Made by a program: the position numbers and the translations under genes. This document shows positions 7,515 through 26,573 of a DNA stretch of 36,014 bases, piece after piece (position 1 is the stretch's first letter; each line of letters begins with the position of its first letter). The stretch covers positions 1 to 36,014 of the forward strand of contig CAYQPF010000035.1 of NCBI GenBank assembly GCA_964419225.1, read 5' to 3'. The notes beneath the pieces were generated by a model that saw only the letters and a list, made by a program, of their open reading frames with translations, was not told where the DNA came from and did no database searches. This DNA is from an uncultured Candidatus Cloacimonadota bacterium. Its GTDB lineage: Bacteria; Cloacimonadota; Cloacimonadia; Cloacimonadales; CAYQPF01.

Positions 7515-8266
7515 ACCAAAGAAGCCGAGAATATAAGACCCGGGTTATTGTTTTACGCAAGACCTTGTTCAAGGAGAGCAGCTATGTATTGGAGTTGCTG
7601 TCGGACGATCTGGGAAAGATCCCGGCATTGGTCAAAGGTGCCAGAGGTGGTAAATCTTCAGAACCGGGCAAATTTGAGATCCTCAATATTCTAAGTGTCA
7701 TTTTGCATAAAAGTCCTGATGCTGAAATGTATCTCATCAAATCGGCTGATTTCGAGAAGAGTTATTTACTGGAGGCTGCCTTCAAAAAATCCATCCTCAT
7801 GCAGGCAGGTGCCGAAGTGCTCTTGCAGTTGGAAATAGCTATGGAAGACAGAACCAAGTTCTTTCTGTTATTGGAAACTTATCTGGACTATTTAAGAAAA
7901 AGTGATAAATATTCTCCACAAATATTCTGGAGATTTCTCTTGAGAGCTTTCGAATTCTCCGGAATCGAACTCGCTCCCAATACTTGCAGTGATTGTCAAA
8001 AAAGTAAAATCCCGATGAAAATCTTCAATTATCCCAACCGTTTTCTCTGTGCAGAATGTGCAGCTCAAATCCTCAGAAAGCCGGACTTTTCCTTCTCACC
8101 CAAAGTCGGTGAAATTTTTGCCGGCATCTATGATTTAAATAAAACTGACTCTGTTGACAGCCTGGGCAGGGTTGTCATCGACGAAATAAATAATTTTCTA
8201 CTGGAAGTATTTAAAGAACACTTCCATCTGAAACTGCACTTACGGAGCTTCGGTTTATGGACCTGA
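7511..8266 (+). CDS. recO: DNA repair protein RecO
   Basis: N-terminal OB-fold block reads 'RVIVLRKTLFKESSYVLELLSDDLGKIPALVKGARG'. C-terminal Cys4 zinc motif reads 'CSDCQK...CAEC'. The ORF is 251 aa. Confidence 0.8.
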   Translation: MNQRSREYKTRVIVLRKTLFKESSYVLELLSDDLGKIPALVKGARGGKSSEPGKFEILNILSVILHKSPDAEMYLIKSADFEKSYLLEAAFKKSILMQAGAEVLLQLEIAMEDRTKFFLLLETYLDYLRKSDKYSPQIFWRFLLRAFEFSGIELAPNTCSDCQKSKIPMKIFNYPNRFLCAECAAQILRKPDFSFSPKVGEIFAGIYDLNKTDSVDSLGRVVIDEINNFLLEVFKEHFHLKLHLRSFGLWT

Positions 8267-10833
8267 TCATTTCCCATATCAATTGTGATTTCGATGCTCT
8301 GGCTTCCATGTTGGCAGCAAGCCTGTTATTTCCTGAAGCTCAAATGTGTCTCGTGGGATCCACAGAGCAGACTGTTAAACTCTTTTTGGAAAGAAACAAC
8401 AATAGATTCAATTTTCTTAAGGAAAAGAACGTTAAACTTTCAGAAGTCAAAAGAGTTATCACTGTTGATAACAGAGATCTGGACCGGATGGGAAAAATAG
8501 GCGAATTTCTAACGTTACATCCTTCTATTCCTGTCCTGGCTTTCGATCATCATCCGGAAAGCAAGAATGATGTTAAATCCACTTATTCACACGTGGAACT
8601 AACCGGAGCCTGTACAACGATTATGTACCAATTACTGGAAGAAAGAGGCATATTGATAGATAATTTCACAGCATCTCTATTTGCTTTGGGGATCTATGAA
8701 GATACAGGACATTTTCTGCATGCTAATACAACTGCCAAAGATATGTTCATTGCCTCCAAACTGCTCTCACAAGGTGCATCCTTGAATTTTATCAATAAAT
8801 ATCTGCACCCGAATCTCTCCCAGAATCAACTTGTTATCCTCAACTCTATGATCAATTCGGTCGAAAACCTTACGGTAAAAGGAATTGAATTTGCCATTAC
8901 TGCCCTGGAGCTGGATCATTATCAGGAAAATATCTCCTATATGGTGCAGATCTTTCAGCGTACAGAAAAGCTGGATATGGTGATCTGTATGTTTCATTAT
9001 GGCAACAAAACGACCTTGATCGCCCGCAACAGGTATGATTTTCTGGACATTGGCTTAGTAATGAAGCAATTAGGCGGAGGTGGACATAAGTCCGCCGGTT
9101 CAGCCGTTATCAACAAAAAAGATAATAATGAACTCAAAACAGAGATTCTGGCCTTAATATCTGCTCAGATTGAGCACAATGGTACAGCAGCAGATATCAT
9201 GACCTCATCTGTAGAAACAATCCCCTCAAGTTTATTGCTCGCAGATGCTCTGGATGCTCTGACCCATAAAAAATACAGTTCCCTGCTTATCGCAGACAAT
9301 AATATTCTCAAAGGTTTAATCACAAGTAAAGATCTTACCAAACTTGCCCAGCACAGGATGCTGAATCTGCCGGTTGAAAACTTCATGACTACCAATCTGA
9401 TCATAGTCTCGCCCGATACTTCCATAATCAAAATCAAACAGCTGATTCTGGAAAACAGTATTGGCAGAATCCCAGTTGTTGAAGGTGGTCAATTGAAGGG
9501 AATAATCACCCGGAGAGATATCCTCAAAGGCAAACAAATTCAAATCAAAGAAAGTCAGTTTGTGGATAATATTACTAATCTGATGAAAAAGCAGTTTCTG
9601 CCTGAGCAAATGACCTTACTCGGCAAGATCGGTTATGTGGCAGAGTATCTGAATATGAAGGTTTATCTTGTGGGAGGAGTTGTCCGCGATTTACTCTTAG
9701 CTCAACCCAATCAGGATATTGATATTGTTGTCGAAGGAGATGCCATAGAATATGCCAGAGTGTTTAGTCAGAAATTCGGCAAAAGGTATGTGTATTTCAG
9801 CAAGTTCGGTACAGCTATCATTACCCTGGGTGGTTCACATAAAATCGATGTGGCTACTGCCAGAACAGAGTCCTACTCACAGCCAGGAATCTTACCTGAA
9901 GTGGAAGCGTCCACCTTGAAGCATGATCTTTACCGCAGAGATTTTACCATCAATGCTATGGCCGTAGAACTCGACTCTGCCAGATTCGGCAATTTCATCG
10001 ACTACTTCGGCGGGAGAAGAGCCTTGCAACTGAAAATCCTGAAAGTACTACATAATCTAAGCTTTATTGATGACCCCACCCGGATTCTCAGAGCTGTCAG
10101 ATTTGAGCAGAGATTTGGTTTCAGAATCGAATCAAGAACTTTGCATCTACTTAATAAAGCACTGTGTCAGGATTCTTTAAAAACTGTGGCACCTGAACGC
10201 ATCAGACAAGAACTTATTTTGGCTGCCAAAGAACAAAGACCGGAAAACTTCTTCAACCGTCTGCAGGAACTAAGTATCCTAAAAAGGATCTACCAGCCAC
10301 TCTGCTTTGACGCAGAAAAGAAAGTTATTTTCAATAATATCTTTGAGAATCTGATCTGGTTTAAGAGAAGCTTTCCTGATGATAAAACCGAGGCCTGGGT
10401 TATTTATCATTTAGGTTTGGTGCATGATTTAAAACACCGGTCAAAAGTTAAATTTAGTGATATGCTCAAGTACCCAAAAATCTTCATGAATGCTCTTGAT
10501 ACCTTGGACTGGTTTGCAGAAAAGGAAATTGTCAAACTTCAGTGTATAGAGAATAAAAGTCTAATCACCGAGTCTCTGCAAAAGTTGAGTAATGAATTAC
10601 TGCTCTATCTTTTATCCATACCTCAAGAAAACGGTTTGAAACTAAAAATAAAATCTTATCTGCTGGAATGGAGATATGTTAAACTGGAGATCAATGGCGA
10701 AGACATAAAGAAGCTTGGTATCAATGAGGGAAAAAGAGTCGGAGAATTACTCAAAGCTGTTCAGCGGGAAAAACTGGATCATGGCCTGAAAGGAAAGCAG
10801 GAAGAACTGGAATTTCTTAATCGCCTTAGATAG
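8257..10833 (+). CDS. Multidomain DHH/DHHA1 phosphoesterase - CBS pair - poly(A) polymerase/CCA-adding tRNA nucleotidyltransferase family protein
   Basis: N-terminal DHH is shown by 'HINCDFDALASM' and 'AFDHHPE'. DHHA1 is shown by 'GGGGHKSAGSA'. Two CBS-like segments lie at about aa 310-420. The nucleotidyltransferase head reads 'VYLVGGVVRDLLLAQPNQDIDIVVEGDA' and 'RRDFTINAMA'. The ORF is 858 aa. Confidence 0.8.
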   Translation: MDLIISHINCDFDALASMLAASLLFPEAQMCLVGSTEQTVKLFLERNNNRFNFLKEKNVKLSEVKRVITVDNRDLDRMGKIGEFLTLHPSIPVLAFDHHPESKNDVKSTYSHVELTGACTTIMYQLLEERGILIDNFTASLFALGIYEDTGHFLHANTTAKDMFIASKLLSQGASLNFINKYLHPNLSQNQLVILNSMINSVENLTVKGIEFAITALELDHYQENISYMVQIFQRTEKLDMVICMFHYGNKTTLIARNRYDFLDIGLVMKQLGGGGHKSAGSAVINKKDNNELKTEILALISAQIEHNGTAADIMTSSVETIPSSLLLADALDALTHKKYSSLLIADNNILKGLITSKDLTKLAQHRMLNLPVENFMTTNLIIVSPDTSIIKIKQLILENSIGRIPVVEGGQLKGIITRRDILKGKQIQIKESQFVDNITNLMKKQFLPEQMTLLGKIGYVAEYLNMKVYLVGGVVRDLLLAQPNQDIDIVVEGDAIEYARVFSQKFGKRYVYFSKFGTAIITLGGSHKIDVATARTESYSQPGILPEVEASTLKHDLYRRDFTINAMAVELDSARFGNFIDYFGGRRALQLKILKVLHNLSFIDDPTRILRAVRFEQRFGFRIESRTLHLLNKALCQDSLKTVAPERIRQELILAAKEQRPENFFNRLQELSILKRIYQPLCFDAEKKVIFNNIFENLIWFKRSFPDDKTEAWVIYHLGLVHDLKHRSKVKFSDMLKYPKIFMNALDTLDWFAEKEIVKLQCIENKSLITESLQKLSNELLLYLLSIPQENGLKLKIKSYLLEWRYVKLEINGEDIKKLGINEGKRVGELLKAVQREKLDHGLKGKQEELEFLNRLR

Positions 10834-10854
10834 TTAATGGTTAATAGTTAAGGG

Positions 10855-11118
10855 ACGCTTAATAGAACGCGGATGGCGCTGATCAGGCGGATGGTCGCAG
10901 ATCGGAGAGATATGTTAAAGACAGATATGTCAGGTAAAACTACCAAAAACTGAGTCTACAATTTTTAGGACTGACCGTAAGAGAAAGCATTTTTCAAATC
11001 GGCCCGGCATTTATGCGGAAATAAAAAAAGATGAAAACCTCTCTTTCTGTTTCGATCAATAATTTACAAATCCGCGATTAACTGCGTTTTCCGTGTTAAT
11101 CCGCGTTCTATTAAGCGT
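10855..11118. repeat. Perfect 20-bp inverted repeat 'acgcttaatagaacgcggat' / 'atccgcgttctattaagcgt' flanking 224 bp in a convergent intergenic region. It is a MITE-like or long-stem structured element.
   Basis: Arms at 10855-10874 and 11099-11118 are exact reverse complements. Nested imperfect 'gcggat'/'atccgc' sub-repeats lie just inside both arms. No ORF is inside. Confidence 0.6.
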
Positions 11119-11122
11119 CTCT

Positions 11123-14100
11123 TCATTCTTCTAATCTTACCTTACAGGCAAGGGCTTTTTCCGGCTGTCCTGCTTTTTCATACAGATCACATAAATGTTT
11201 ACCAACCGTAGTTGTATAGAGATGATCCGGGCCAAAGTATTTCTCACAGATAGCTAAGGCTCTGATATACAAAGGTTCGGCTTCTGTATATTTCCCTTGA
11301 GATTTATATATTCCTGCTAAATTGCTCAATGAACTCGCGGTTTTTAAATGTTCAGGGCCAAGTATTTTTTCGCTTATAGCCAAAGCTTTCAGGTTAAATA
11401 TCTCAGCTTGAGCAAATTTGCTTTGAATCTTAAACAAATCTGCCAGACTATTGAGTAAACTCACAGTATCTGGATGCTCTTCACCCAGAGTTTTTTCCTG
11501 GATCATTAAAGCTCTTTGATAAAGCGGTTCGGCTTTCTCATAAACTCCTTGTTTTCTGTACAGATCTCCCAGATAGTTAAGTGTTTTCGCAGTATCAGGA
11601 TGTTCCATTCCCAGAATCCTCTCCCTGATTTCCAATACTTTGAGGTATAGGTGTTCAGCCTGATCAAATTTACTCTGATTGTGATAAAACACAGCCAGAT
11701 TATTCAGGGATAATGCTGTACTGGGATGTTCTTCACCCAGAACCGTTTTCTGAATGTTCAAAGCTCTTAAATAGCTAATTTCAACCTCATCATATTTACC
11801 CTGTATATCATATAAATTTGCTAAATTGTTCAGTGTGGCTGCTGTTTCATGATGATCAACTCCCAATGTCTCTTCTCTTATTTTTAAACATCTTAGATAA
11901 TAAATCTCAGATAACTCAAATTTACCTTGCTCAGTATATAAGTGCGATAAATTATTAAGCATAGTCGCTGTTTCAGGATGCTCAGCACCAAAGACTCTTT
12001 CGGAAATTTTTAAGGTTTTCAGATACATTGACTCTGCCAAATCTAATTTGCCCTGATTCGTATATAAAATAGCCAAATTATTGATCACTCCTCCAGTATT
12101 TGGATGTTCTGAACCAAGCTTTTCTTCTAATATTTCTAAAGCCTGTAAGAACATAGATTCACCCAGGTCATATCTTCCTTGATTTACATACAGGAGTCCC
12201 AGATAATTAATAGTTAAGGCTGAGTTCACATGCCTTAATCCAAAAAGTTTCTTTTGAGTTTCCAAAGTACTCAGATAAAGGACTTCTGCTTGATCATATT
12301 TTGTCTGACAAACATACAAATATGCCAGATTTATAGCTGTTCGGGCTGTTTCCTGATGCTCGGATCCATAGACCTTCTTAAAAATATCCAAAGACTTTAA
12401 AAACAACAACTCTGATTGATCATATTTACCTTGACTCATATATAATGTAGCCAGATTATTCAGAGAAAGTGCTGTATCTGGATGATCTGAACCTAAAACT
12501 TTTTCTCTAATATTAAAGGCTGTCTGGAATAAGAGTTCAGCACGGTCATTTTGACCCAACACATAAAACATACACGCCAAAAGATTAATTGAACTTGCAG
12601 TATCCGGATGTTCTTCTCCGAGTATTCGTTTATGGATTTCCAAAGCTCTATTCAAATTTGTTTCAGCTTTAGTAAAATCATATTTTTCTGCAAAATAGTC
12701 TCCAGCTTTAGAGTAATATTGTGCAGCCTTAATCTCCTCACCCGCACATAAATAATGATTGGCGATGTCTTCAGCATTCGAATCAAGCTCTTTTGCAAAT
12801 AAACGTTCCATAGCTTGAGCCGCAAGCAAATGCAATTGTTGCAAACGTTGAGTAAGCATACGCTGATATGCAATATCCTTAATCAGCACATGTGAAAATA
12901 TGTAACTGATCTCATCAAAATTTGTCCAAACCCTCCTGCTTTTTCCAAAACTTAGATCTTCTTCAATTTCCATGCCCAACATATTAGCAAGCAATTCGGT
13001 ATTGAACTCCAATCCCAAAACACAGGCATTTTGCAGAGTTTGACGAACTCTTTCTGTTAGGTTATCAATGCGGTTACCAATAATGTCGGCAATACCGAAA
13101 GTGCTTATCAGAGTTGTATCCACAGTAATATTGTAAAATTGATCAAATTGGTTATTCTCCTTTAAATAAGCTGTCAATTGCTCAATAAAAAATGGATTTC
13201 CTTCTGACCGGGTTATTATTAATTCTAATGTTGTCCTGGGTATATTGCTATGATTCAATAACTGGCTTATCAAGTTTTTACTACCTACTGGTGTTAAATG
13301 GTTCAGATCCATAACTTCCTTCCTGAAACCTGGCAAACCTAAATCTACCTGACTGCCATCTTCATTATAACGGCAAGCACAAATGATGTGTACAAAAGGA
13401 ACTGAGTTTTCACCTAAAGCTCTAAAATATTCCAGTGTTTTTGTCTCTATCCACTGAGGATCATCCAAATGTATGATAATTGGTTTCTGCTCTGCTAAGG
13501 CTTGTAAAAAAGAAACAAAAGCATGCTTAATCTGCTCTGATCTTTTTTCCGGGGGCAAAAAACTGAATATCGAATGCTCCCACTCATAACCAAGCAGCGA
13601 AGCAATAAAAGATTCTATGCGCAAGAGTTCCTGATCTTCCTGAGCTAGTTCAGACCATGTCCTGTGGAATTTTTCCAGGTTACGCTTAATAGACTGTAAA
13701 TGTTCAGTACCAAAGTAGCTGTGAAGAATCTGTTTTACAGGTTCAAGAGATTTTTTACTGACCGGATCACAAAAAGTAAAGAACTTATGAAAGCAGGAAT
13801 CTGGAAGACCTTTTATGGCTTCAGATATGAGTCGGCTTTTACCAACTCCGGCTTCTCCTGAAACATAAACAACAGAGCTGTCCTTGGCCTTCAAGAAGCT
13901 TTGTAAAACCGATATTTCTACATCCCGCCCGGTAAATTCACTTTCGGACAAATTTAATTTCTCTGATCTGAAACCCTCCAACCGGTAAACATTGACTGGG
14001 GCAGAAAACCCTTTAAGCTCAATGAATCCAATATTCGAAAATATGTAACGATGATGCAAATCTCGTTGTAACCAAGTATCAGTAATGACCCTTCCATCTG

Positions 14101-15106
14101 CAGACTTGCTCAATAAGCGTGCAACCAGATTAACTGCTGCTCCCACTGCCGTGTATTCACGAGTATGCTTTACCCCGACAAAACCTGCATAAACATTACC
14201 ACTGGCAATACTCATAAGCAGTTTAGGAATTGTGTTAGCAACATCAAGAGCAAAACGGCAAATCCGGTCCAGGGTATTTCCCTCAGATTTAGGTAACCCA
14301 AAGAGGATAAAGCCCTCCAGTCCTTTGCCTGTCCCGTCCAGTCTGGTCAAAAAACCACTATAAGCATCCAGTTTATCATGCAGAACAGCCAAAGTTTGTT
14401 CCCACTCCTCAACAGCTATCTGACTTAGATCTACAAAGCAAAAGGCTGCATCACGGATTTCATTAGCCGGCTGCTCATTTAAAAGACGTTTATGACAGAA
14501 TTTCTCATAAGAAGCGTGGGAGAAAGGATAATCCAAACAAAGATCAGGATAAATCGTTTCTGTTTCAACTGCATTAATCCTGTCAATTTGCTCCAAAACT
14601 CCTTTTGACCAGGCGACAGCTTGTTTCGCAACTGAAAGTTGGGAGATCTCCTGTAACGGTTCGCCATAGAAAACATATTCATTTTGATACTCATTTTGAA
14701 AGATCTGCCAATTAATCATTCCGGAACTAATTGTTAACCTTACGGCTATCTTAAAATCACCGCAGGCAGAAGAAAATATTCTATGTTTCGCGAAATATTG
14801 TTCTATCTTCTTTACAACATTAACAATTCTTTCGGGTTTTCCCTCAGGAAACAAAGTACAAAAACCATCTCCGGCAAACACACTGACGAAACCGCCATTT
14901 TTCTCTACAAGATTTAAAGGATATGTAAATATTTCTTCCAGAAAACGGCTTAATTCTTCGGCTCCTCTTTTACCATGTTTACGAAATTCATTGCTGATAA
15001 CGGTAAAATCTGCTATATCAAAAAACAAAACAAAACTTTCGAAACTTCCCGAATATCTGTCATTTTCAAAACGGTTAAGAAAAAAAGGCGGTATATATCT
15101 AATCAT
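11123..15106 (-). CDS. Adenylate/guanylate cyclase (tandem class-III cyclase-homology domains) - AAA/STAND NTPase - TPR-repeat signalling protein
   Basis: Cyclase blocks read 'FFDIADFTVISNEF...FAGDGFCTLF', with a second block 'FCFVDLSQIA...'. Walker A reads 'VSGEAGVGKSRL'. At least 12 TPR_10/12-type repeats carry the recurring 'EHPDTA..LNNLA.LY..QGKY..AE' unit. The ATG at 15106 is preferred over the GTG at 15127 because an AGGGAG SD lies 6 nt upstream of it. Confidence 0.8.
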   Translation of the reverse strand: MIRYIPPFFLNRFENDRYSGSFESFVLFFDIADFTVISNEFRKHGKRGAEELSRFLEEIFTYPLNLVEKNGGFVSVFAGDGFCTLFPEGKPERIVNVVKKIEQYFAKHRIFSSACGDFKIAVRLTISSGMINWQIFQNEYQNEYVFYGEPLQEISQLSVAKQAVAWSKGVLEQIDRINAVETETIYPDLCLDYPFSHASYEKFCHKRLLNEQPANEIRDAAFCFVDLSQIAVEEWEQTLAVLHDKLDAYSGFLTRLDGTGKGLEGFILFGLPKSEGNTLDRICRFALDVANTIPKLLMSIASGNVYAGFVGVKHTREYTAVGAAVNLVARLLSKSADGRVITDTWLQRDLHHRYIFSNIGFIELKGFSAPVNVYRLEGFRSEKLNLSESEFTGRDVEISVLQSFLKAKDSSVVYVSGEAGVGKSRLISEAIKGLPDSCFHKFFTFCDPVSKKSLEPVKQILHSYFGTEHLQSIKRNLEKFHRTWSELAQEDQELLRIESFIASLLGYEWEHSIFSFLPPEKRSEQIKHAFVSFLQALAEQKPIIIHLDDPQWIETKTLEYFRALGENSVPFVHIICACRYNEDGSQVDLGLPGFRKEVMDLNHLTPVGSKNLISQLLNHSNIPRTTLELIITRSEGNPFFIEQLTAYLKENNQFDQFYNITVDTTLISTFGIADIIGNRIDNLTERVRQTLQNACVLGLEFNTELLANMLGMEIEEDLSFGKSRRVWTNFDEISYIFSHVLIKDIAYQRMLTQRLQQLHLLAAQAMERLFAKELDSNAEDIANHYLCAGEEIKAAQYYSKAGDYFAEKYDFTKAETNLNRALEIHKRILGEEHPDTASSINLLACMFYVLGQNDRAELLFQTAFNIREKVLGSDHPDTALSLNNLATLYMSQGKYDQSELLFLKSLDIFKKVYGSEHQETARTAINLAYLYVCQTKYDQAEVLYLSTLETQKKLFGLRHVNSALTINYLGLLYVNQGRYDLGESMFLQALEILEEKLGSEHPNTGGVINNLAILYTNQGKLDLAESMYLKTLKISERVFGAEHPETATMLNNLSHLYTEQGKFELSEIYYLRCLKIREETLGVDHHETAATLNNLANLYDIQGKYDEVEISYLRALNIQKTVLGEEHPSTALSLNNLAVFYHNQSKFDQAEHLYLKVLEIRERILGMEHPDTAKTLNYLGDLYRKQGVYEKAEPLYQRALMIQEKTLGEEHPDTVSLLNSLADLFKIQSKFAQAEIFNLKALAISEKILGPEHLKTASSLSNLAGIYKSQGKYTEAEPLYIRALAICEKYFGPDHLYTTTVGKHLCDLYEKAGQPEKALACKVRLEE

Positions 15107-15133
15107 AATTAACTCCCTACTTCTCACGGAAGA

Positions 15134-15159
15134 ATTATAAATAAACTACGTACTGTCAA
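15134..15159 (-). promoter_or_regulatory. Putative sigma70-like promoter for the cyclase-STAND gene. On the minus strand the -35 is TTGACA and the -10 is TATAAT.
   Basis: Both hexamers match consensus exactly, but the spacer is only 14 nt. The predicted TSS near 15127 leaves a 21-nt leader with an AGGGAG SD before the ATG at 15106. Confidence 0.35.
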
Positions 15160-15240: not shown

Positions 15241-17694
15241 TTAAAACAATTTCTGCGGATTGGAGAGAATGCTTAAATACATTTTCCGGGAAGTACTCCC
15301 TTGAGAGTTTTGGGTGGAAGCTTTCAAACTGTATCTTGCAGGAAAAATACCCTGATCAAGAAAATATGTTTTTAAGGATTCCTCGAATTCAATTTTGGAC
15401 ACAGCTGCATTAGTCTCACTGACAACATTGATCCTCAAAAAATAGGTAGGATTAGTTCGCATGATTTTGATCACATCTTTGAACTTAGTCTGATAAAAAT
15501 CAGGTGCCGGATTGGTTAACTCGGGATAAGCAGAAATCGTATAATCATAAGAAAACAATCTGGTATTGGACAGGAAATAATATCCTGCTTTAATACTTCT
15601 GAAACTGAGGTATTTTTCATTCAGTTGGAAAGTCAATAAAGTAAGTTTGAACCCATCATCATAGTACAGATACAGATCTGACTGATTATTAAGTGAAACA
15701 AGAGAATCAGTCATAGGCAGGTAAATGGTTGAAGCTGATAGAGATTCCCCGAATTGATATACACAATCCCAAGCCGGGTAGTTCATCAGAATAAGGCTGT
15801 CAGTGACAATAGAAAAATCTTTGAGGTTATCCAACAAATTGACATAAGCCCCATTCGGGAGAAAACTGGATTTATTACCGTCAAAAGCAATCTCAGTAAC
15901 TTGTTGATTTTTCAAAACAAAGGACTTTTCGCTTTTTGTCAGTTTATCAAAGTAAGGTGCCATCAGTAAATAATTTTTGGCAGATAAGGCCGCTAATTTA
16001 TATGATTTGAAAACAGGATCAGAGAAGATGGGAATAACACGTTCGGTGAAATTAAACAATTGAGCATACTTTTTTTCTTTATTAAGAGCCCAGGCATAGT
16101 GAAGAGCAATTTGCTTTAAACTGTCAATAGTACCAGGAACAGAAGTTTGTAACTCTTGGAATAAGTCCACAATTTCACCGGATTTGCTTTCTTGCCGTAG
16201 TTTGCGGGCAAGTTCATTTTTAGCGGGATAATACAATTTATGGTAAGGATAATAAGCAATAATTTTACGAAGTGACTGGACCGCAAGGGTATCACTTTTC
16301 AGTTGCTGTGAACAACGGTATTTAAGCCAATAGCAATCTGCAGAAACAGAATTATCTTCAACACTACTGATAACTCCATCCAGAACCTGAATACATTTTT
16401 GGTATTCATTATTCTGGAAAAGCAGCTTCGCATTTTGCAAAGACATCTTCAACAAGAAATCCAGAGAATTGATTTCCGAACAGGACTTATTGATCTCATC
16501 TACAGTTTTTGTCAAATTTTTGGGGGAGTAGTTAAGTAAAGAAAGATAGCACTTGGCATAATTCTTATGTACAGCAAGTTGATTAGAGCTGAGAGAATTA
16601 AAAACATATCCGGCCTGAGCAAAATCACCTTGCTTGTAACATTGCTCTGCCCACATAAAGAGGACTTTTTCCTTCAAAGGTGTGTCTTTAAATTGATCTA
16701 GAAAAAAAGCATAATCTGCCAAAACAGGTACCTGCTTCGTAGAGCTGGTTTCCAATTTTTCGTATAATTCCAAGTCGAATTTCTGTTCAAAAGTGTAAAA
16801 CATAGAGTTCAAAGCAGATGCTTGAGGAAACTTGATACCGAACTGCAAATTAGGCTCCTGTTTAAAATCATTAATGGGAAAATCTAAAAGGATAGTTTTT
16901 CTAATCTGTTGCAGAATGGTCTGTAATTGACCTTCCAGTTTAATTTCACTGGAAAGGTTTGTATAAAACCCGTTAAACTTAAGGCACATTCTTTCCATTG
17001 TCGCAGTAGGTTTGGGAGCTATATCCAGAACATAGATAGATACATCTGAGTTTTTTAAAACACCAACCAGATCTTTATTGGAGACAGACGAACCATTATC
17101 TTCGCCATCAACAATGATAAAGAGATATTTATTATGAAATCGTGGTTGTTCATTAAGGTCTGCCACTGCCAGGACAAGTGCATCATTGGTATATGTTTTA
17201 TCTGTAAAAGAAGGAATATTGGCTATTTCTTTCTTTATTAAAAAAGGTGAATTGGAAAAGAATAATCTTTTACGGGTTATCAAGCTGGCTTCACTCTCGT
17301 TGATCCGGGAAATATTACGCCCATCTCCATAATCATAAAGAGACAGGTAAAAATCACTGCTAAGGCTGTCCTGAAAGGAAGTCAGAGCTTTTTGCACATT
17401 GGCATATTTATCCTTCATTGATAGTGAGTTATCCAGTACTATACTTATATTTTTTATCTCTGCAGTATTACCAAGAAATGCAGTTTTTTTAACAACTGTT
17501 CTTTCAGAATTAACTTCCAGAGTAATTTCTGACGGTTTGACTACTTTTATAAGTGATGTTTGGCCCGGAGTTAAATAAAGTCGATACAGGGAGTCTTGCC
17601 CTGCAAAAACACGTGTAACTTTATAAGGTTCGGTCTCTGCAGCAATTAAGCAAGCCCAAATGAAGAGAACAAACAACAGTATAATTTTTTTCAT
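15241..17694 (-). CDS. Secreted von Willebrand factor A (vWA) domain protein with a C-terminal TPR-like/helical region
   Basis: Signal peptide 'MKKIILLFVLFIWACLIAA'. MIDAS-type motif in 'ISIVLDNSLSMKDK...YLFIIVDGEDNGS'. The ORF is 817 aa. Its start overlaps the upstream gene as ATGA. Confidence 0.7.
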   Translation of the reverse strand: MKKIILLFVLFIWACLIAAETEPYKVTRVFAGQDSLYRLYLTPGQTSLIKVVKPSEITLEVNSERTVVKKTAFLGNTAEIKNISIVLDNSLSMKDKYANVQKALTSFQDSLSSDFYLSLYDYGDGRNISRINESEASLITRKRLFFSNSPFLIKKEIANIPSFTDKTYTNDALVLAVADLNEQPRFHNKYLFIIVDGEDNGSSVSNKDLVGVLKNSDVSIYVLDIAPKPTATMERMCLKFNGFYTNLSSEIKLEGQLQTILQQIRKTILLDFPINDFKQEPNLQFGIKFPQASALNSMFYTFEQKFDLELYEKLETSSTKQVPVLADYAFFLDQFKDTPLKEKVLFMWAEQCYKQGDFAQAGYVFNSLSSNQLAVHKNYAKCYLSLLNYSPKNLTKTVDEINKSCSEINSLDFLLKMSLQNAKLLFQNNEYQKCIQVLDGVISSVEDNSVSADCYWLKYRCSQQLKSDTLAVQSLRKIIAYYPYHKLYYPAKNELARKLRQESKSGEIVDLFQELQTSVPGTIDSLKQIALHYAWALNKEKKYAQLFNFTERVIPIFSDPVFKSYKLAALSAKNYLLMAPYFDKLTKSEKSFVLKNQQVTEIAFDGNKSSFLPNGAYVNLLDNLKDFSIVTDSLILMNYPAWDCVYQFGESLSASTIYLPMTDSLVSLNNQSDLYLYYDDGFKLTLLTFQLNEKYLSFRSIKAGYYFLSNTRLFSYDYTISAYPELTNPAPDFYQTKFKDVIKIMRTNPTYFLRINVVSETNAAVSKIEFEESLKTYFLDQGIFPARYSLKASTQNSQGSTSRKMYLSILSNPQKLF

Positions 17695-18422
17695 TTTATC
17701 CTCAGCAAAATATAGTCGGTCGTTTTTTCAATTCTAAAATACTTGCAGGTTAGTTTATTATTGCCGGCTATTTTATCAAATTGATTCAGCCATTCACCGG
17801 TGGAAATCGCTTTATCTTTGTTTGTATCAGAAGTTTTTAGAGCTTTAGTAGTTCTATAAACAGTTTGTCTTAAATAATAAAGTTGATCATCAAGAGATGT
17901 GCTTTGCACATCAGAACTTTGGGAATTGATAACAACGAGATACTTACCTGAGGTAAAGTCTGTACAAGAATATTCCTGCAAAAATTCTTCAGGAAGAGGA
18001 GATTTTCCGGGTGCTACGATAAATATGATATTATTGAACGCCGGACTGATCTTAATAAAATTCAAAAGATAATCCAAAGTCAGAGTGGTTTTGTATTCTG
18101 TTGCCAAAATACTGGATTCTCCACCAGATTTTTTTTCCCAGGCTCCTGCTAAAACACCACAGAAGAAGGAACTATCTGTTAAAGACTTGGAAAAATCCAG
18201 ATATTGAGAGAAAACATTTTCCTTGAGATTAATCTGGACTGAACGTTGGGGTGTTTGCTGAAAAGCTCCGCTAAGTATTTGAAGCAGTTCATCCTTGTTC
18301 GAGTCGAACCCTTTTGCTTTGAATTGATCATTACCTTCAGAGCTATGTATTAGCAAACTATAGTTTAACCCATTAAGGCTAAAACTGAGCATAAGGCAAA
18401 TTAAAATAATTATGGATTTCAT
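17691..18422 (-). CDS. Secreted hypothetical protein
   Basis: ORF of 243 aa with an N-terminal signal peptide 'MKSIIILICLMLSFSL'. It is translationally coupled by ATGA overlaps on both sides within the MoxR-vWA operon. Confidence 0.45.
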   Translation of the reverse strand: MKSIIILICLMLSFSLNGLNYSLLIHSSEGNDQFKAKGFDSNKDELLQILSGAFQQTPQRSVQINLKENVFSQYLDFSKSLTDSSFFCGVLAGAWEKKSGGESSILATEYKTTLTLDYLLNFIKISPAFNNIIFIVAPGKSPLPEEFLQEYSCTDFTSGKYLVVINSQSSDVQSTSLDDQLYYLRQTVYRTTKALKTSDTNKDKAISTGEWLNQFDKIAGNNKLTCKYFRIEKTTDYILLRIK

Positions 18423-20155
18423 TTTTTCTTTCCTTTACCGGCAGGAACGGTATTGGTATTCTCAATTTCCGGAGTGGTTACCACCGGAGCTTCTGCTGCT
18501 TTCAAAGCAGTTTCCAGAATTTTAATTTGATTTAAAAGTTCAAAATAGTTTTTATAATTTTTGAATTGTTCCAGCATCTTACCCGATTCAGGATCAGTTT
18601 GATTCATTTGAGACTGTAGATTTTGATACTTCTGCAGAACAGGTGGAAATTTCTGGTACAGTTGATTAAGCGGATTTTTCAGCAGAGGAACAGCATTAAT
18701 CTTTTCAAAATAAATCATGTCAGGATACAACAAAGAAAGATCTTTCAGAGTGTTCGTTTTTGCTTTGAGCTCTTTATTGAATTTCGGCATTAAAAAGGTT
18801 GTTAAATATTGCTGACACAGATTAAGACTATCCGGTACAAAAAGAACATTTACCGGATTTGCACTCCCCGTAAAAATATTATCTAACTGCCCATATAGAA
18901 GACCAGGGCTGTCAACAGATCCATAGAATATGATATTTACCCCATTAAATGGCTTTTCATTAATGCTTCGTAAAAGATTATTTACGGTAAAGGCAGACCT
19001 GTCATTCTTCAAAACAGTAGCTGTTTCAGTGACAAAAAGATCTCCACAGATAATCAGATTCAGGGTGTAATCTAAATTTGTTTCCATCTTGGATATCCCG
19101 GACAAATAGGTCTCCAAGGTCGCAGGACTTTCATATGAGTAAAGAATATTGGCATTTGCCTTCTGTCCTATTCCAGTCCATTGATTGGAAAACAGATCAT
19201 AAAAGAAGTTTGCCTTTTCTTCATATGCTTTGTTACCGTTAAAAATATAAGTATAGTTATTAGTATCCTGCTTCAAATCCATCCAGTCCTGAGGATAGCC
19301 CTGAACAATATTCTGCAGATAATAATTCAAACTATCTTCTAATGCATAGAAATCATTGTTTTTGGCAAAAGAAGAGTAAAAAAGCGAAAACGTATCTGTT
19401 CTTACTATTTCATAAATATCTTTACAGGAAAAAATAAAGTTGTTCAATCCGGGTTTAAGAATCAGGTTTTTCTTGAAGATTTTTTCCTTTGTTAAAGGCA
19501 ATTTCTCATTATTAAGAATAACCTCCTTCAAGGAGTATTTATGATTCACAGTAAAAGTCAGTTCTGCTGTAGGGGGAGTAAAACTTAAGATACTCGAGTT
19601 GAAGGTAACTTTTGGAGTTGGAAGATTGTTTTTGAATTTATCAGGGAAGTCGGTCATTAGACATTCTTTAATCAGAGAAGACATTTTGGAATTGGTTTGC
19701 TGAGAAAAGAATTGATAGTAAGCAAACAACATTTTGTAAATATCCGGCGAACGTCGATCAATTTTATGGATCAGATTCTGATAATATTTATCCTGATATT
19801 TTGTAAGCGAAAGCAAAGTTAAAAGGGAATCTGATGGATTTATTAAATAGGCCTGTGACAGATAATTGTAGGCCAAATCACTCTTTTCACACTGAAAATA
19901 AATAACACCCTTTGCCTTTAAAAAAACCGGTTGAGGTACAACATTATCCTCAAAATTACTCAGCTCCTGACTTGCCATGACCGGCATAAAATTGGCCAGA
20001 TAACTCTCCAGCAATTCTATTCGCAAAGCTATACTCTTAGGATTATAAAAGACTTTCTGATACAAACTGTCTAAAGAAGTCGCACTATTTTCAGCAGTCA
20101 ATAAGGTTAAAACTGAAAACAGTATTAATAATAGAATTATCTTTTTCATACTCAA
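18419..20155 (-). CDS. Secreted hypothetical protein with an N-terminal TPR-like region
   Basis: ORF of 578 aa. Signal peptide 'MKKIILLLILFSVLTLLTA'. The C-terminus is Lys-rich. ATGA overlap with the MoxR stop. Confidence 0.5.
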   Translation of the reverse strand: MSMKKIILLLILFSVLTLLTAENSATSLDSLYQKVFYNPKSIALRIELLESYLANFMPVMASQELSNFEDNVVPQPVFLKAKGVIYFQCEKSDLAYNYLSQAYLINPSDSLLTLLSLTKYQDKYYQNLIHKIDRRSPDIYKMLFAYYQFFSQQTNSKMSSLIKECLMTDFPDKFKNNLPTPKVTFNSSILSFTPPTAELTFTVNHKYSLKEVILNNEKLPLTKEKIFKKNLILKPGLNNFIFSCKDIYEIVRTDTFSLFYSSFAKNNDFYALEDSLNYYLQNIVQGYPQDWMDLKQDTNNYTYIFNGNKAYEEKANFFYDLFSNQWTGIGQKANANILYSYESPATLETYLSGISKMETNLDYTLNLIICGDLFVTETATVLKNDRSAFTVNNLLRSINEKPFNGVNIIFYGSVDSPGLLYGQLDNIFTGSANPVNVLFVPDSLNLCQQYLTTFLMPKFNKELKAKTNTLKDLSLLYPDMIYFEKINAVPLLKNPLNQLYQKFPPVLQKYQNLQSQMNQTDPESGKMLEQFKNYKNYFELLNQIKILETALKAAEAPVVTTPEIENTNTVPAGKGKKK

Positions 20156-21144
20156 CCAAGGGTTTTTAGTATTTTTTGGACAATATCCTGAGATTTGTAT
20201 CCCTCTGCTTCTGCAGCAAAAGAGAGAAGCAGTCTGTGTTGCAGAACGATCTCAGCAGAGCTGATCACATCTTCAACCGATGGTGTAAGTCGATTATCCA
20301 TGGCAGCTTTGGCTTTGGCAGCCAGAACCAGGAATTGAGAAGCTCGAGGCCCGGCACCCCAGTTAACCATACTCTTAACAAAGTCCGGTGCTTCAGGATT
20401 TGAAGGGCGGGTTTTTCTTACCAATTTAACAATAAAATCAAGAACATGCTCACTCACAGGAATATTCCGGATTGATTCCTGAATTTTTACAATGTGGGCG
20501 GCATCTGTTATCTTTCTCAATTCTGTTTTTTCTGAACTTGTAGTTTTTTCAGCTATCATTTTCTCAGTATCATAAGAAGGATAATCAATATAAATCTTAA
20601 ACATAAATCTGTCTAACTGAGCTTCGGGTAAAGGGTATGTACCCTCCTGCTCGATTGGATTCTGGGTCGCTAATACTAAAAATGGTTGATCCAAATTATA
20701 TGTCTGATTTCCTGCTGTAACCTGATACTCCTGCATAGCCTGCAATAGTGCAGACTGCGTCTTGGGAGGTGTTCTGTTGATTTCATCTGCCAGAATAATA
20801 TTAGCAAAGACAGGACCCTTGATGTATTCAAAATACCGTTTACCATCAGATTTATCTTCAGCTAAAATATCTGTACCTGTAATATCAGATGGCATTAAAT
20901 CCGGGGTAAACTGAATTCTGCTAAACTTTAGATCCATTACTCGAGCTAAGGATGATACTAAAAGTGTCTTAGCCAAGCCAGGGACTCCTTCCAACAAACA
21001 ATGCCCGTTACAAAACAAGGCACAAAGGAAATCCTCTATTACTTTTTCCTGTCCGTAAACAGACTTATTTATTTCCGAAATTATCTTTTTCTTAGTATCC
21101 TGTACTGTTTCCAGCACTTTTACGAAATCAGCGTTACTTTTCAT
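20152..21144 (-). CDS. moxR: MoxR-family AAA+ ATPase
   Basis: Walker A reads 'GVPGLAKTLLVSSLARVM'. Walker B/sensor reads 'ILADEINRTPPKTQSALLQAMQE'. The ORF is 330 aa, typical MoxR size. Confidence 0.9.
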   Translation of the reverse strand: MKSNADFVKVLETVQDTKKKIISEINKSVYGQEKVIEDFLCALFCNGHCLLEGVPGLAKTLLVSSLARVMDLKFSRIQFTPDLMPSDITGTDILAEDKSDGKRYFEYIKGPVFANIILADEINRTPPKTQSALLQAMQEYQVTAGNQTYNLDQPFLVLATQNPIEQEGTYPLPEAQLDRFMFKIYIDYPSYDTEKMIAEKTTSSEKTELRKITDAAHIVKIQESIRNIPVSEHVLDFIVKLVRKTRPSNPEAPDFVKSMVNWGAGPRASQFLVLAAKAKAAMDNRLTPSVEDVISSAEIVLQHRLLLSFAAEAEGYKSQDIVQKILKTLG

Positions 21145-26572: not shown

Positions 26573-26573
26573 A

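What the first reader, a model, noticed from the sequence alone, without database searches (positions are those of the whole stretch)
11123..15106. Giant STAND-type NTPase with tandem nucleotide-cyclase effector domains and a 12+ repeat TPR sensor
The architecture is cyclase-cyclase / AAA (Walker A 'GEAGVGKS') / TPR array. It matches MalT/Avs-like STAND proteins, in which an N-terminal effector is controlled by a ligand-sensing TPR array. Here the effector is a pair of class-III adenylate/guanylate cyclase domains. This could be a cNMP-producing signalling switch or defence sensor. Its predicted -35/-10 promoter and RBS are intact.
Basis: partly seen in the sequence, partly recalled or inferred. 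Interest (0 to 1): 0.55.

Follow-up and report, generated by a model that had tools for sequence, protein, structure and literature searches.

The report
Bacterial soluble-adenylyl-cyclase-type STAND/TPR signalling protein
This gene encodes a large bacterial protein built like the full-length form of animal "soluble adenylyl cyclase": two complementary half-cyclases that form one active site, then an ATP-driven switch and a 12-repeat peptide-binding sensor; it belongs to a widespread but functionally unstudied bacterial family, not a new kind of system.

Summary
A single intact ORF (window 11123-15106, minus strand, 1327 aa) encodes cyclase-cyclase / STAND NTPase / 12 x 42-aa TPR.

The two cyclase halves are complementary, not redundant. 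C1 keeps the metal-binding Asp pair (D30, D80). C2 keeps the base and phosphate residues (R255, T319, N326, R330) and has lost the Asp pair. Together they should form one active site.

This is the arrangement of eukaryotic soluble adenylyl cyclase (sAC/ADCY10):
- Human sAC is the best solved match by sequence (family profile E 2e-53 over residues 35-466).
- C1 corresponds to sAC C1 and C2 to sAC C2, one-to-one.

sAC's bicarbonate-binding Lys95 and Arg176 are absent. The NTPase has all STAND motifs and is closest to MalT. The TPRs resemble peptide-binding kinesin-light-chain repeats.

The family is widespread: at least 495 loci across many phyla, closest in Cloacimonadota. It often has several paralogues per genome and never a conserved partner gene. 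No defence-system model matches.

Verdict: a new member of a known kind, most likely a cAMP-producing switch gated by an unknown TPR ligand. The defence reading is unsupported, and the "MalT/Avs-like" label is half right.

The parts
11123..15106 (-). Whole gene: sAC-type tandem cyclase / STAND NTPase / TPR protein, 1327 aa plus TGA stop
   Evidence: Homologues are 1284-1399 aa with the same N-terminus.
15154..15159 (-). -35-like hexamer TTGACA
   Evidence: Read directly. Not called by the consensus scan because the spacer is 14 nt. Function not shown.
15134..15139 (-). -10-like hexamer TATAAT, 14 nt after the -35-like hexamer
   Evidence: Function not shown.
15113..15117 (-). Shine-Dalgarno-like GGGAG, 6 nt before the ATG at 15106
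14573..15055 (-). C1 cyclase-homology domain (aa 18-178). Carries the metal-binding Asp pair D30 (nt 15017-15019) and D80 (14867-14869) and the PPi-contacting basic residue R123 (14738-14740). Lacks the Asn/Arg pair. V76 replaces sAC Lys95 and S155 replaces sAC Arg176.
   Evidence: phmmer alignment to human sAC C1 residues 35-177. The family C1 HMM scores 59.7 bits against human C1 and 4.2 bits against human C2. Residue conservation is 67/68 and invariant in 25 sequences from diverse phyla. Residue roles come from PMC12867704 Table 1.
14465..14572 (-). C1-C2 linker (aa 179-214), low-confidence and poorly conserved
   Evidence: pLDDT dips at aa 171-190. No conserved columns in this stretch.
13967..14464 (-). 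C2 cyclase-homology domain (aa 215-380). Carries the base-recognition residue R255 (14342-14344; Lys in 63 of 68 relatives), T319 (14150-14152), N326 (14129-14131) and R330 (14117-14119). The metal Asp equivalents are lost (D226 is variable in the family, L268).
   Evidence: Pfam Guanylate_cyc matches aa 269-377. phmmer aligns it to sAC C2 residues 324-429. The family C2 HMM scores 62.0 bits against human C2 and 3.3 bits against human C1. Conservation.
12857..13945 (-). STAND NOD (aa 388-750: NBD, helical domain, winged helix). Motifs: Walker A GEAGVGKS (13835-13858), Walker B IIIHLDD (13460-13480), sensor-1 CR (13370-13375), GNP (13193-13201), winged-helix YIFSH (12890-12904).
12710..12856 (-). 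Helical 'arm' linking the NOD to the sensor (aa 751-799)
   Evidence: Helices 752-769, 778-787 and 791-808 in the AF2 model. Conserved H759, A762, A763 and H784. Called an 'arm' by analogy with MalT/PH0952 (PMC6468293); this is inference.
11198..12709 (-). TPR sensor: 12 in-register 42-aa TPR_10/TPR_12 units (aa 800-1303)
   Evidence: anchors spaced exactly 42 aa apart, mean inter-unit identity 41%. Pfam. AF2 pLDDT above 90. Foldseek finds kinesin light chain TPRs at 37-43% identity, plus APPBP2 and LGN. No DNA-level tandem repeat.
11123..11197 (-). C-terminal capping helix (aa 1304-1327) and TGA stop. The last codons overlap one arm of an intergenic inverted repeat.

Best explanation
The gene encodes a cytosolic, stand-alone signalling enzyme of the soluble-adenylyl-cyclase (sAC/ADCY10) type.

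Catalytic part (largely shown). The N-terminal 380 residues fold as an intramolecular C1.C2 pseudo-heterodimer of class III cyclase domains, with a single catalytic site at the interface. C1 supplies the two metal-binding aspartates (D30, D80) and a pyrophosphate-contacting Arg (R123). C2 supplies the base-side residues (R255, T319) and the transition-state and alpha-phosphate residues (N326, R330). The symmetry-related second site is degenerate. Unlike mammalian sAC, it lacks the bicarbonate-binding Lys and Arg, so the catalytic core is probably not a bicarbonate sensor.

Product (inferred). It is most likely 3',5'-cAMP. The Thr at the second specificity position is the class IIIb / sAC signature. 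The Lys-to-Arg change at the first specificity position leaves nucleotide specificity formally open.

Regulation (inferred by analogy with MalT, PH0952 and Apaf-1). Output is gated by the C-terminal module, a MalT-like STAND NTPase followed by a 12-unit TPR superhelix of the kinesin-light-chain type. In the resting state the ADP-bound closed NOD, braced by arm and TPR contacts, holds the cyclase at low activity. Binding of an unknown ligand in the TPR groove, probably a peptide or protein segment, releases this autoinhibition. ADP/ATP exchange and oligomerisation follow, and cyclase activity rises. cAMP would then act on receptors encoded elsewhere in the genome.

Status of each step. Shown: the anatomy, the homology and the residue complement. 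Inferred: catalysis, the product, the direction of regulation and the nature of the ligand.
For: Identity with the sAC type:
- phmmer of aa 1-383 against PDB puts human sAC on top (E 7e-13) with two ordered stretches, C1-to-C1 and C2-to-C2.
- A profile from 25 bacterial sequences of diverse phyla aligns to human sAC 35-466 in one stretch, E 2.2e-53 and 185 bits. The next best cyclase scores 96 bits.
- Reciprocal HMM test: C1 HMM scores 59.7 bits on human C1 and 4.2 on human C2. C2 HMM scores 62.0 on human C2 and 3.3 on human C1. The family's own C1 and C2 score about 0 bits against each other.
- The C2 motif N-K-x4-D-K-G has the same spacing as sAC N333-K334...D339-K340-G341.

Catalytic competence:
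- D30 and D80 are conserved in 67/68, T319, N326 and R330 in 67/68, and Lys or Arg at position 255 in 67/68.
- D30, D80, N326 and R330 are invariant across phyla.
- Residue roles come from PMC12867704 Table 1 and PMC12250328.

No bicarbonate site:
- The K95 equivalent is V/L/H and the R176 equivalent is A/G/V/S in the whole family.
- Replacing these residues abolishes bicarbonate sensitivity in sAC.

STAND switch:
- Pfam AAA_16, conserved motifs, fold hits to MalT, NRC2, Apaf-1 and PH0952.
- The STAND activation scheme is described in PMC6468293.
- Full-length mammalian sAC has a predicted STAND/P-loop after C2 and about 3-fold lower specific activity than the truncated form (PMC12802110; PMC6023465).

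Peptide-type TPR:
- Foldseek finds KLC1/2 cargo-binding TPRs at 37-43% identity, the APPBP2 degron receptor and LGN.

Stand-alone gene:
- No conserved neighbour was found.
Against: - No enzymatic data exist for this protein or, as far as I could find, for any member of this bacterial family.
- This particular protein departs from the family consensus in the C2 beta2/3 segment. It has T254-R255 and G260 where more than 90% of relatives have N-K and D. That could change specificity or lower activity.
- Because C1 and C2 can pair within one chain, the classic STAND logic of effector activation by induced proximity does not obviously apply. Regulation must be allosteric or work through higher-order assembly, and neither is demonstrated.
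- In purified mammalian full-length sAC, no nucleotide or other regulator acting through the P-loop region was found.
- Direct homology between this NOD and the C-terminal region of eukaryotic sAC could not be tested. No full-length ADCY10 sequence or AlphaFold DB search was available.
- pTM 0.54 means the predicted cyclase-NOD arrangement is not reliable.
- No cNMP receptor gene is present in the window.
Confidence: 0.62

Rival explanations
1. It is an NLR-like anti-phage sensor (Avs-like or Pycsar-like). The TPR array recognises a phage protein, the STAND core oligomerises, and the cyclase emits a cNMP alarm signal that activates a toxic effector.
For: - STAND plus TPR sensor plus N-terminal enzymatic effector is the Avs layout, and most Avs sensors are TPR-like (PMC13581612).
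- cNMP cyclases occur as effectors in NTP-dependent conflict systems (PMC7159879).
- The family is expanded into several paralogues per genome and tandem pairs. Examples are at least 7 loci in one Sumerlaeota MAG, 3 in one Cloacimonadales genome, and adjacent copies in at least 8 of 80 loci.
- TPR identity between homologues (0.36) is lower than in the catalytic and NOD parts (0.47-0.50).
- There are faint PycC matches to C1.
Against: - No PADLOC model gives a significant hit. The best non-TPR hit has E 4e-5 (PDC-S27, P-loop region only), and PycC has E 0.0015-0.011 with no significant stretch.
- No effector or cNMP-binding gene lies next to it here or in 5 annotated homologous loci. No recurrent neighbour appears among 80 loci. 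Pycsar-type systems need an adjacent effector.
- The flanks are housekeeping genes: RecO, a tRNA nucleotidyltransferase and lipid synthesis genes. There are no integrases or other defence genes.
- The TPR repeats are old, with no DNA-level repeat.
- The catalytic core is specifically sAC-like, a housekeeping signalling enzyme family.
- The Nature 2026 STAND defence survey never mentions cyclase effectors in its main text (0 occurrences of 'cyclase').
Confidence: 0.1
2. It works like animal sAC. The catalytic core itself is the sensor (bicarbonate, pH, Ca2+ or ATP level), and the STAND-TPR tail serves mainly as a scaffold, a localisation module or a mild autoinhibitor.
For: - The core is sAC-type class IIIb.
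- Non-mammalian sACs that lack K95 or R176 are regulated by pH instead of bicarbonate (PMC12867704).
- For mammalian full-length sAC no ligand of the STAND part is known.
- Many more distant bacterial tandem relatives keep the Lys95 equivalent, 'KFGGDA'.
Against: - Both bicarbonate-binding side chains are absent in the entire Cloacimonadota-type family.
- All STAND nucleotide-switch motifs are under strong conservation, being invariant or above 90%. That argues for a working switch, not a passive scaffold.
- The paralogues share near-identical catalytic signatures but have divergent TPRs. This pattern is easier to explain if the TPR carries the input specificity.
Confidence: 0.13
3. It is a pseudo-cyclase. 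The C1-C2 module only binds ATP and acts as a sensory or structural domain, as in the P. aeruginosa class III cyclase-like ATP-binding protein (PDB 6yii). The protein would be a non-enzymatic scaffold.
For: - This copy deviates from the family consensus at three positions of the C2 beta2/3 segment (T254, R255, G260).
- Inactive cyclase domains are common in some multidomain systems.
Against: - Every residue needed for catalysis is present here: D30, D80, R123, T319, N326, R330 and a basic residue at 255. These residues are conserved in 67/68 relatives and across phyla.
- 6yii is not detectable by sequence even with the family profile at E <= 0.01, whereas active sAC scores 185 bits.
- The deviating positions are not metal or transition-state residues.
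Confidence: 0.07
4. It is an active cyclase, but for a nucleotide other than ATP (for example GTP, as in the Dictyostelium sAC homologue sGC), because Arg replaces the base-recognising Lys. This is a variant of the best explanation, not an exclusive rival.
For: - R255 replaces the Lys found in 63/68 relatives.
- The equivalent position varies widely (K, R, L, H, G, Q, E, D, T, A) among more distant tandem relatives, which suggests diversified specificity.
- The Dictyostelium homologue of sAC is a guanylyl cyclase (PMC8684759).
Against: - Arg is a conservative replacement.
- In sAC, Lys334 contacts the base only through a water molecule.
- The second specificity residue is the sAC-type Thr, not the Cys/Gly/Ser typical of guanylyl cyclases (established knowledge of class III cyclases, recalled from memory).
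- No experimental precedent for an Arg/Thr pair was found.
Confidence: 0.15

Closest known systems
Eukaryotic soluble adenylyl cyclase, full-length isoform (sAC / ADCY10), and its Dictyostelium homologue sGC
   Same: - It has N-terminal C1 and C2 class III domains in the same order, with one-to-one correspondence.
- The division of labour is the same: the Asp47/Asp99 equivalents sit in C1 and the Thr405/Asn412/Arg416 equivalents in C2.
- The C2 motif N-K-x4-D-K-G is shared.
- C2 is followed by a P-loop / STAND-type NTPase region. For sAC this is according to PMC12802110 and PMC6023465. For Dictyostelium sGC it is a C-terminal AAA-ATPase domain.
   Different: - The bicarbonate-site residues Lys95 and Arg176 are absent (V76, S155).
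- Arg replaces Lys334.
- The C1-C2 linker is much shorter. Human sAC 35-466 aligns to about 380 residues here.
- The tail is a textbook 12 x 42-aa TPR_10/12 array, with no haem-binding domain reported or detected.
- Homology of the NTPase parts was not tested here.
Chloroflexus aurantiacus 'sAC-like' cyclases (Kobayashi, Buck & Levin 2004, Dev Genes Evol 214:503)
   Same: From my memory of that abstract (the paper is not held), these are bacterial proteins with two cyclase catalytic domains. Their similarity to mammalian sAC extends through the C-terminal region. This is the same kind of protein. Chloroflexota relatives with the C1-C2-NOD layout are in my hit lists (P0095; Anaerolineae and Chloroflexaceae loci).
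   Different: One Chloroflexus enzyme was reported to be bicarbonate-stimulated (also stated in PMC11006738). The present family lacks the bicarbonate residues. Identity to the Chloroflexota relatives is only about 23-30%.
MalT / PH0952-type STAND proteins with TPR (SUPR) sensors
   Different: The effector is an enzyme pair rather than a DNA-binding domain. The effector is already a complete intramolecular dimer. The TPR units are of the regular 42-aa KLC type. Sequence similarity to MalT is undetectable by phmmer.
Mycobacterial Rv0386 / Rv2488c-type cyclase-ATPase-(TPR)-LuxR proteins, and the single-cyclase-NOD-TPR proteins found here
   Same: A class III cyclase is fused N-terminally to an AAA_16/STAND ATPase and TPRs. 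The NODs of the single-cyclase relatives match the family NOD HMM at 130-200 bits.
   Different: Those proteins have one cyclase domain (class IIIc for Rv0386), which must homodimerise, so induced proximity through the STAND core is a natural mechanism. They also carry a C-terminal LuxR HTH. Here there are two complementary domains and no HTH.
Avs anti-phage STAND NTPases
   Same: The general layout is shared: N-terminal effector, STAND NTPase, C-terminal TPR-like sensor.
   Different: There are no significant PADLOC Avs/STAND hits, no defence-island context, a cyclase instead of a nuclease, protease or similar effector, and a sensor of regular idealised repeats.

Membership tests
sAC (ADCY10)-type tandem class III cyclase | Two class III cyclase-homology domains in one chain, C1 then C2, forming a pseudo-heterodimer | tested here: met
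sAC (ADCY10)-type tandem class III cyclase | Complementary active-site residues: two metal Asp in C1; Thr (class IIIb), Asn and Arg in C2; basic base-contacting residue in C2 | tested here: met
   D30, D80 / R255, T319, N326, R330. Roles are taken from PMC12867704 Table 1. Arg stands in place of Lys334 in this copy.
sAC (ADCY10)-type tandem class III cyclase | C1 and C2 each closer to the corresponding sAC domain than to each other or to other cyclases | tested here: met
   Scores are 59.7 against 4.2 bits and 62.0 against 3.3 bits. The family profile gives 185 bits to sAC and at most 96 bits to any other solved cyclase.
sAC (ADCY10)-type tandem class III cyclase | Bicarbonate-binding site (Lys95, Arg176) | tested here: not met
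   V76 and S155 here, and L/V/H and A/G/V/S across the family. The site is also missing in most non-mammalian sACs. It therefore defines the mammalian regulatory mode, not the family.
sAC (ADCY10)-type tandem class III cyclase | C-terminal STAND/P-loop region homologous to that of full-length ADCY10 | not testable with these tools
   The STAND module is present here and is reported for sACfl. No full-length eukaryotic sequence or AFDB search was available.
sAC (ADCY10)-type tandem class III cyclase | Adenylyl cyclase activity | not testable with these tools
   This needs an enzyme assay.
STAND NTPases (MalT/AAA_16 branch) | NOD with Walker A, Walker B hhhhDD, sensor-1 Arg, GxP in the helical domain, and a conserved His in the winged helix | tested here: met
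   G417xxGxGKS424, I543-D549, C578-R579, G636-N-P638 and Y735-x-F-x-H739 are invariant or at least 90% conserved. Pfam AAA_16 scores 52.3 bits against a cutoff of 32.6.
STAND NTPases (MalT/AAA_16 branch) | NOD fold similar to solved STANDs; C-terminal repeat sensor | tested here: met
STAND NTPases (MalT/AAA_16 branch) | Ligand-induced ADP/ATP exchange and oligomerisation | not testable with these tools
   This needs a biochemical test.
Avs (antiviral STAND) defence proteins | Match to Avs/defence STAND models; defence-island context; phage-protein recognition | tested here: not met
   PADLOC gives only a generic TPR hit and weak P-loop hits, with STAND_TPR at E 0.043. The context is housekeeping and not conserved. 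Phage recognition was not testable.
Pycsar (pyrimidine cyclase anti-phage system) | PycC-type cyclase plus an adjacent effector gene with a cNMP-binding domain | tested here: not met
   PycC hits have E 0.0015 and 0.011 with no significant stretch. There is no cNMP-binding gene in the window or at homologous loci.
vWA-MoxR (VMAP) ternary conflict systems with cNMP cyclase effectors | Cyclase domain fused to, or conserved next to, the vWA / MoxR / VMAP components | tested here: not met
   A MoxR (20152-21144) and a weak-vWA protein (15241-17694) lie directly upstream on the same strand. None of the 5 annotated homologous loci has them, and no such ORF cluster recurs in 80 loci. The cyclase is fused to a STAND NOD, not to vWA or VMAP.
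Rv0386-type cyclase-STAND-LuxR regulators | Single cyclase domain and C-terminal LuxR HTH | tested here: not met
   There are two distinct cyclase domains and no HTH hit.

The most novel reading that the evidence does not exclude
These bacterial proteins may be the ancestral, still 'canonical' form of full-length soluble adenylyl cyclase. The STAND-TPR module would be a genuine ligand receptor, and each of the several paralogues per genome would use a different TPR surface to sense a different intracellular peptide or protein and convert it into cAMP. This would be an NLR-like receptor repertoire wired to a second messenger instead of to cell death. If so, this tractable bacterial family would reveal what the enigmatic STAND tail of animal sAC does. 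No regulator of that tail has been found (PMC12802110).
Probability: 0.15. Interest if true: 0.6.

Novelty: new member of a known kind. Interest (0 to 1): 0.3.

Why it matters
It matters modestly. Public annotation calls these proteins only 'tetratricopeptide repeat protein' or 'adenylate/guanylate cyclase domain-containing protein', because Pfam misses C1 altogether. Recognising them as full-length sAC-type enzymes does three things:

1. It assigns a concrete catalytic model: one active site built from two complementary halves.
2. It shows the family is widespread and paralogue-rich in many mostly uncultured phyla, including Cloacimonadota, Sumerlaeota, Chloroflexota and Saprospiraceae.
3. 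It offers bacterial models for an open question in animal cAMP signalling, namely what the STAND/P-loop tail of full-length sAC senses. Some relatives are in cultured species such as Neolewinella litorea and Phaeodactylibacter xiamenensis.

It does not reveal a new type of system.

Tried and rejected
- AlphaFold DB fold search (afdb50), meant to test similarity to full-length ADCY10: the library was not installed.
- Retrieving full-length eukaryotic ADCY10 with the human C1 segment: the protein collection holds only exon-sized fragments. That search was wasted.
- Kobayashi 2004 (PMC3644946) and Kleinboelting 2014 (PMC3956179) are not held. Residue roles were taken from PMC12867704 and PMC12250328 instead. 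The 6yii paper was not found.
- A literature search for STAND clade names (SWACOS/MNS) returned nothing useful.
- phmmer of the NOD alone against PDB gave no significant hit. Fold comparison was needed.
- PADLOC gave no defence family. The defence reading was rejected as the main explanation.
- MoxR/vWA adjacency as a functional link was rejected because it is not conserved.
- The apparent 20-locus 'conserved neighbour' cluster turned out to be paralogous family copies and other TPR proteins.
- Tandem Repeats Finder on the TPR-coding DNA found nothing, so there is no recent repeat expansion.
- The sigma-70 consensus scan found no promoter upstream. The hexamers exist with a 14-nt spacer.
- Exact-sequence look-ups for P0008 and P0020 found no contigs.
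- Model coordinates are not exposed, so active-site distances could not be measured.
- Rfam on the intergenic inverted repeat gave no hit.

Full report
**1. What is in the sequence**

Window 11123-15127 holds one uninterrupted minus-strand ORF. Homologues begin with the same motif. A GGGAG Shine-Dalgarno lies 6 nt upstream. The in-frame GTG at 15127 would place that Shine-Dalgarno inside the coding region. The gene is therefore 11123-15106, encoding 1327 aa.

Upstream there are perfect TTGACA and TATAAT hexamers, but only 14 nt apart. That is why the consensus scan (16-18 nt spacer) found no promoter there. 'Intact promoter' is thus only partly confirmed.

**2. Domain anatomy**

Pfam finds the following:
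- AAA_16 at aa 390-567.
- 11-12 TPR_12/TPR_10 units.
- A single, partial Guanylate_cyc match at aa 269-377 (26.5 bits).

The N-terminal 180 residues get only faint PycC and Cas10-palm hits. This explains why relatives are annotated merely as 'tetratricopeptide repeat protein'.

The first cyclase domain is nevertheless real. phmmer of aa 1-383 against all PDB sequences puts human soluble adenylyl cyclase (sAC, ADCY10) on top, with two ordered stretches. Residues 18-156 align to sAC C1 (35-177), and residues 245-344 align to sAC C2 (324-429).

The TPR array is 12 units of exactly 42 aa (aa 800-1303) plus a capping helix. Mean inter-unit identity is 41%, and there is no DNA-level tandem repeat.

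**3.

I used the alignment and the residue roles tabulated for human sAC (PMC12867704 Table 1; PMC12250328).

C1 keeps:
- Both metal-binding aspartates: D30 (sAC Asp47) and D80 (sAC Asp99).
- A basic residue at the pyrophosphate-contacting position: R123 (sAC Lys144).
- It has no Asn/Arg pair.

C2 has lost the Asp pair but keeps:
- T319 (sAC Thr405).
- N326 (sAC Asn412).
- R330 (sAC Arg416).
- A basic residue, R255, at the base-recognising Lys334 position.

The two halves are therefore complementary and should build one active site, as in sAC and in the membrane adenylyl cyclases.

Conservation supports this:
- In 68 full-length relatives, D30, D80, T319, N326 and R330 are each conserved in 67.
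- Across 25 sequences from diverse phyla, D30, D80, N326 and R330 are invariant.

sAC's bicarbonate-binding Lys95 and Arg176 are replaced by V76 and S155. Across the whole family these positions are L/V/H and A/G/V/S. Many more distant tandem relatives do retain the Lys, as 'KFGGDA'.

This particular copy is slightly atypical in the C2 beta2/3 segment. It reads T-R-L-D-G-T-G-K-G where the family consensus is N-K-L-D-A-T-D-K-G. That consensus has the same spacing as sAC N333-K334...D339-K340-G341.

**4. How strong is the link to sAC**

- A profile built from the C1-C2 region of 25 bacterial sequences aligns to human sAC residues 35-466 in one continuous stretch (E 2.2e-53, 185 bits). The next best solved cyclases score 96 and 81 bits.
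- HMMs of the family's C1 and C2 match human C1 and C2 one-to-one: 59.7 against 4.2 bits, and 62.0 against 3.3 bits. The family's own C1 and C2 score about 0 bits against each other. The C1/C2 duplication therefore predates the split between these bacterial proteins and eukaryotic sAC.
- An AlphaFold2 model of aa 1-810 (57-sequence alignment, mean pLDDT 85.4) gives human sAC as Foldseek ranks 1-24.

Full-length mammalian sAC is itself described as C1-C2 followed by an autoinhibitory motif and a predicted STAND/P-loop NTPase (PMC12802110; PMC6023465). The Dictyostelium homologue sGC has a C-terminal AAA-ATPase domain.

From memory, Kobayashi, Buck and Levin (2004) already described Chloroflexus 'sAC-like' cyclases with two catalytic domains and similarity through the C-terminus. 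I could not read that paper here. PMC11006738 confirms its bicarbonate result.

I could not test directly whether the NTPase parts are homologous. Neither AFDB nor a full-length ADCY10 sequence was available.

**5. The switch and the sensor**

The NTPase region has every STAND hallmark, invariant or at least 90% conserved:
- Walker A, GEAGVGKS.
- Walker B, IIIHLDD.
- A sensor-1 CR.
- GNP.
- A winged-helix YxFxH.

A second model (aa 383-1327, pLDDT 89.3) shows that the TPR array most resembles kinesin-light-chain TPR domains at 37-43% identity. It also resembles the APPBP2 degron receptor and LGN, all of which bind peptides in the superhelical groove. PH0952 (6mfv) is the only solved chain matching across NOD and TPR.

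The accepted STAND scheme runs from an ADP-bound closed NOD, stabilised by arm and sensor contacts, to an inducer-triggered, ATP-bound, oligomerising form (PMC6468293). It is the natural model here, but it is inference.

One complication: because C1 and C2 can pair within a single chain, activation by induced proximity is not needed. Control is more likely relief of autoinhibition. This fits the roughly 3-fold lower specific activity of full-length versus truncated mammalian sAC.

**6. Family, distribution and context**

- 68 full-length relatives at 30-59% identity were found, named (where named at all) after Cloacimonetes / Cloacimonadaceae.
- A scan of species-representative genomes found at least 495 relatives.
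- The best 80 all cover C1-C2-NOD.
- They come from Cloacimonadota (closest, 41-47%), Sumerlaeota, Atribacteria, Neomarinimicrobiota, Chloroflexota, Thermotogae, WOR-3, Gemmatimonadota, Spirochaetes, Saprospiraceae and Polyangiaceae.
- Cultured representatives among the Saprospiraceae-related hits include Neolewinella litorea and Phaeodactylibacter xiamenensis.
- Several genomes have many copies, and in at least 8 of 80 loci two copies are adjacent.
- More distant relatives fall into two layouts: tandem C1-C2-NOD, and single-cyclase-NOD. Some proteins of 2200-2300 aa carry the whole single-cyclase module twice.

No partner gene is conserved. Five annotated neighbourhoods are all different. Clustering of 487 flanking ORFs from 80 loci gives no recurrent family other than paralogous copies.

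In this window the flanks are housekeeping:
- RecO.
- An A-adding-type tRNA nucleotidyltransferase.
- A glyoxalase.
- A serpin.
- A MoxR/vWA cluster.
- Lipid and sugar metabolism genes.

No cNMP-binding protein is encoded in the window. The window's genome is not among the species representatives. A Cloacimonadota origin is inferred from the best hits, and from the archaeal-type GGGPS/DGGGPS gene pair known for that phylum.

**7. Defence reading**

Points in its favour:
- The Avs-like layout.
- The paralogue expansion.
- TPRs that diverge faster (0.36) than the catalytic and NOD parts (0.47-0.50).
- The use of cNMP cyclases in some conflict systems.

Points against:
- No PADLOC family matches significantly.
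- There is no adjacent effector anywhere.
- The context is housekeeping.
- The repeats are old.
- The catalytic core belongs to a housekeeping signalling lineage.

I give it about 0.1.

The MoxR/vWA genes directly upstream recall the vWA-MoxR systems that use cyclase effectors. That adjacency is not seen at any homologous locus, so I treat it as coincidental.

**8. Verdict**

The object is a bacterial full-length sAC-type cyclase. It has one composite active site, most likely makes cAMP, and lacks the bicarbonate site. A MalT-like STAND switch with a peptide-type TPR sensor of unknown ligand gates it.

It is a new member of a known, widespread but functionally uncharacterised kind. Interest is modest (0.3). 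The main value is correct annotation, plus a possible bacterial model for the unexplained STAND tail of animal sAC.

Noticed in passing
window 10843-10874 and 11099-11130 (intergenic region between the convergent genes ending at 10833 and 11123): A 32-nt inverted repeat, 88% complementary, with a perfect 21-nt core GACGCTTAATAGAACGCGGAT. The arms are 224 nt apart, and the right arm overlaps the last codons and stop of the cyclase gene. As RNA the region folds with z = -5.6. There is no Rfam family, no other copy in the window, and none in the 86 fetched loci. It could be MITE-like or a long 3' hairpin; this remains unexplained.
   Followed up: partly
window 25817-28292 (minus strand): Archaeal-type ether-lipid genes lie in a row. 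They are a GGGP synthase (PcrB family, which passes the NCBIfam cutoffs), a DGGGP-synthase-like UbiA prenyltransferase (193 bits, below cutoff) and a short-chain prenyl diphosphate synthase. This combination is already described for Cloacimonetes and other FCB-group bacteria (PMC7852524), and it supports a Cloacimonadota origin for the window.
   Followed up: partly
window 15241-21144 (minus strand, directly upstream of the cyclase gene): A MoxR-type AAA_3 ATPase (20152-21144) is followed by two ORFs with no family hit (578 and 243 aa). An 817-aa protein with weak vWA and TPR-like matches comes next. This looks like a MoxR/vWA (Bat-like) cluster. Its adjacency to the cyclase gene is not conserved in any homologous locus.
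   Followed up: partly
window 8257-10833 (+): An 858-aa fusion of DHH, two CBS domains and a poly(A) polymerase/CCA-adding head. It aligns end to end with the NCBIfam 'A-adding tRNA nucleotidyltransferase' model (605 bits) but far below its cutoff of 1440.
   Followed up: no
window 5516-6670 (-): A full-length bacterial serpin (Pfam Serpin, E 9e-108).
   Followed up: no
window 17-2212 (+) and 30586-33132 (-): Two large proteins: a 731-aa protein with two PEGA domains and an FGE-sulfatase-like domain, and an 848-aa protein with a single SPFH/Band-7 domain and no NCBIfam match.
   Followed up: no
proteins P0074-P0084 and P0102; loci L019, L025, L030, L038, L042, L053 and L063: Some relatives of 2200-2300 aa carry the whole module twice in one chain (cyclase-NOD ... 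cyclase-NOD). One Sumerlaeota MAG (CAYMEV01) alone contributes 7 of the best 80 loci, a very large paralogue expansion.
   Followed up: no
proteins P0070-P0114, C2 position equivalent to sAC Lys334: The base-recognising position is highly variable among distant tandem relatives (K, R, L, H, G, Q, E, D, T, A), while Asn and Arg are invariant. This hints at diversified nucleotide specificity within the superfamily.
   Followed up: no
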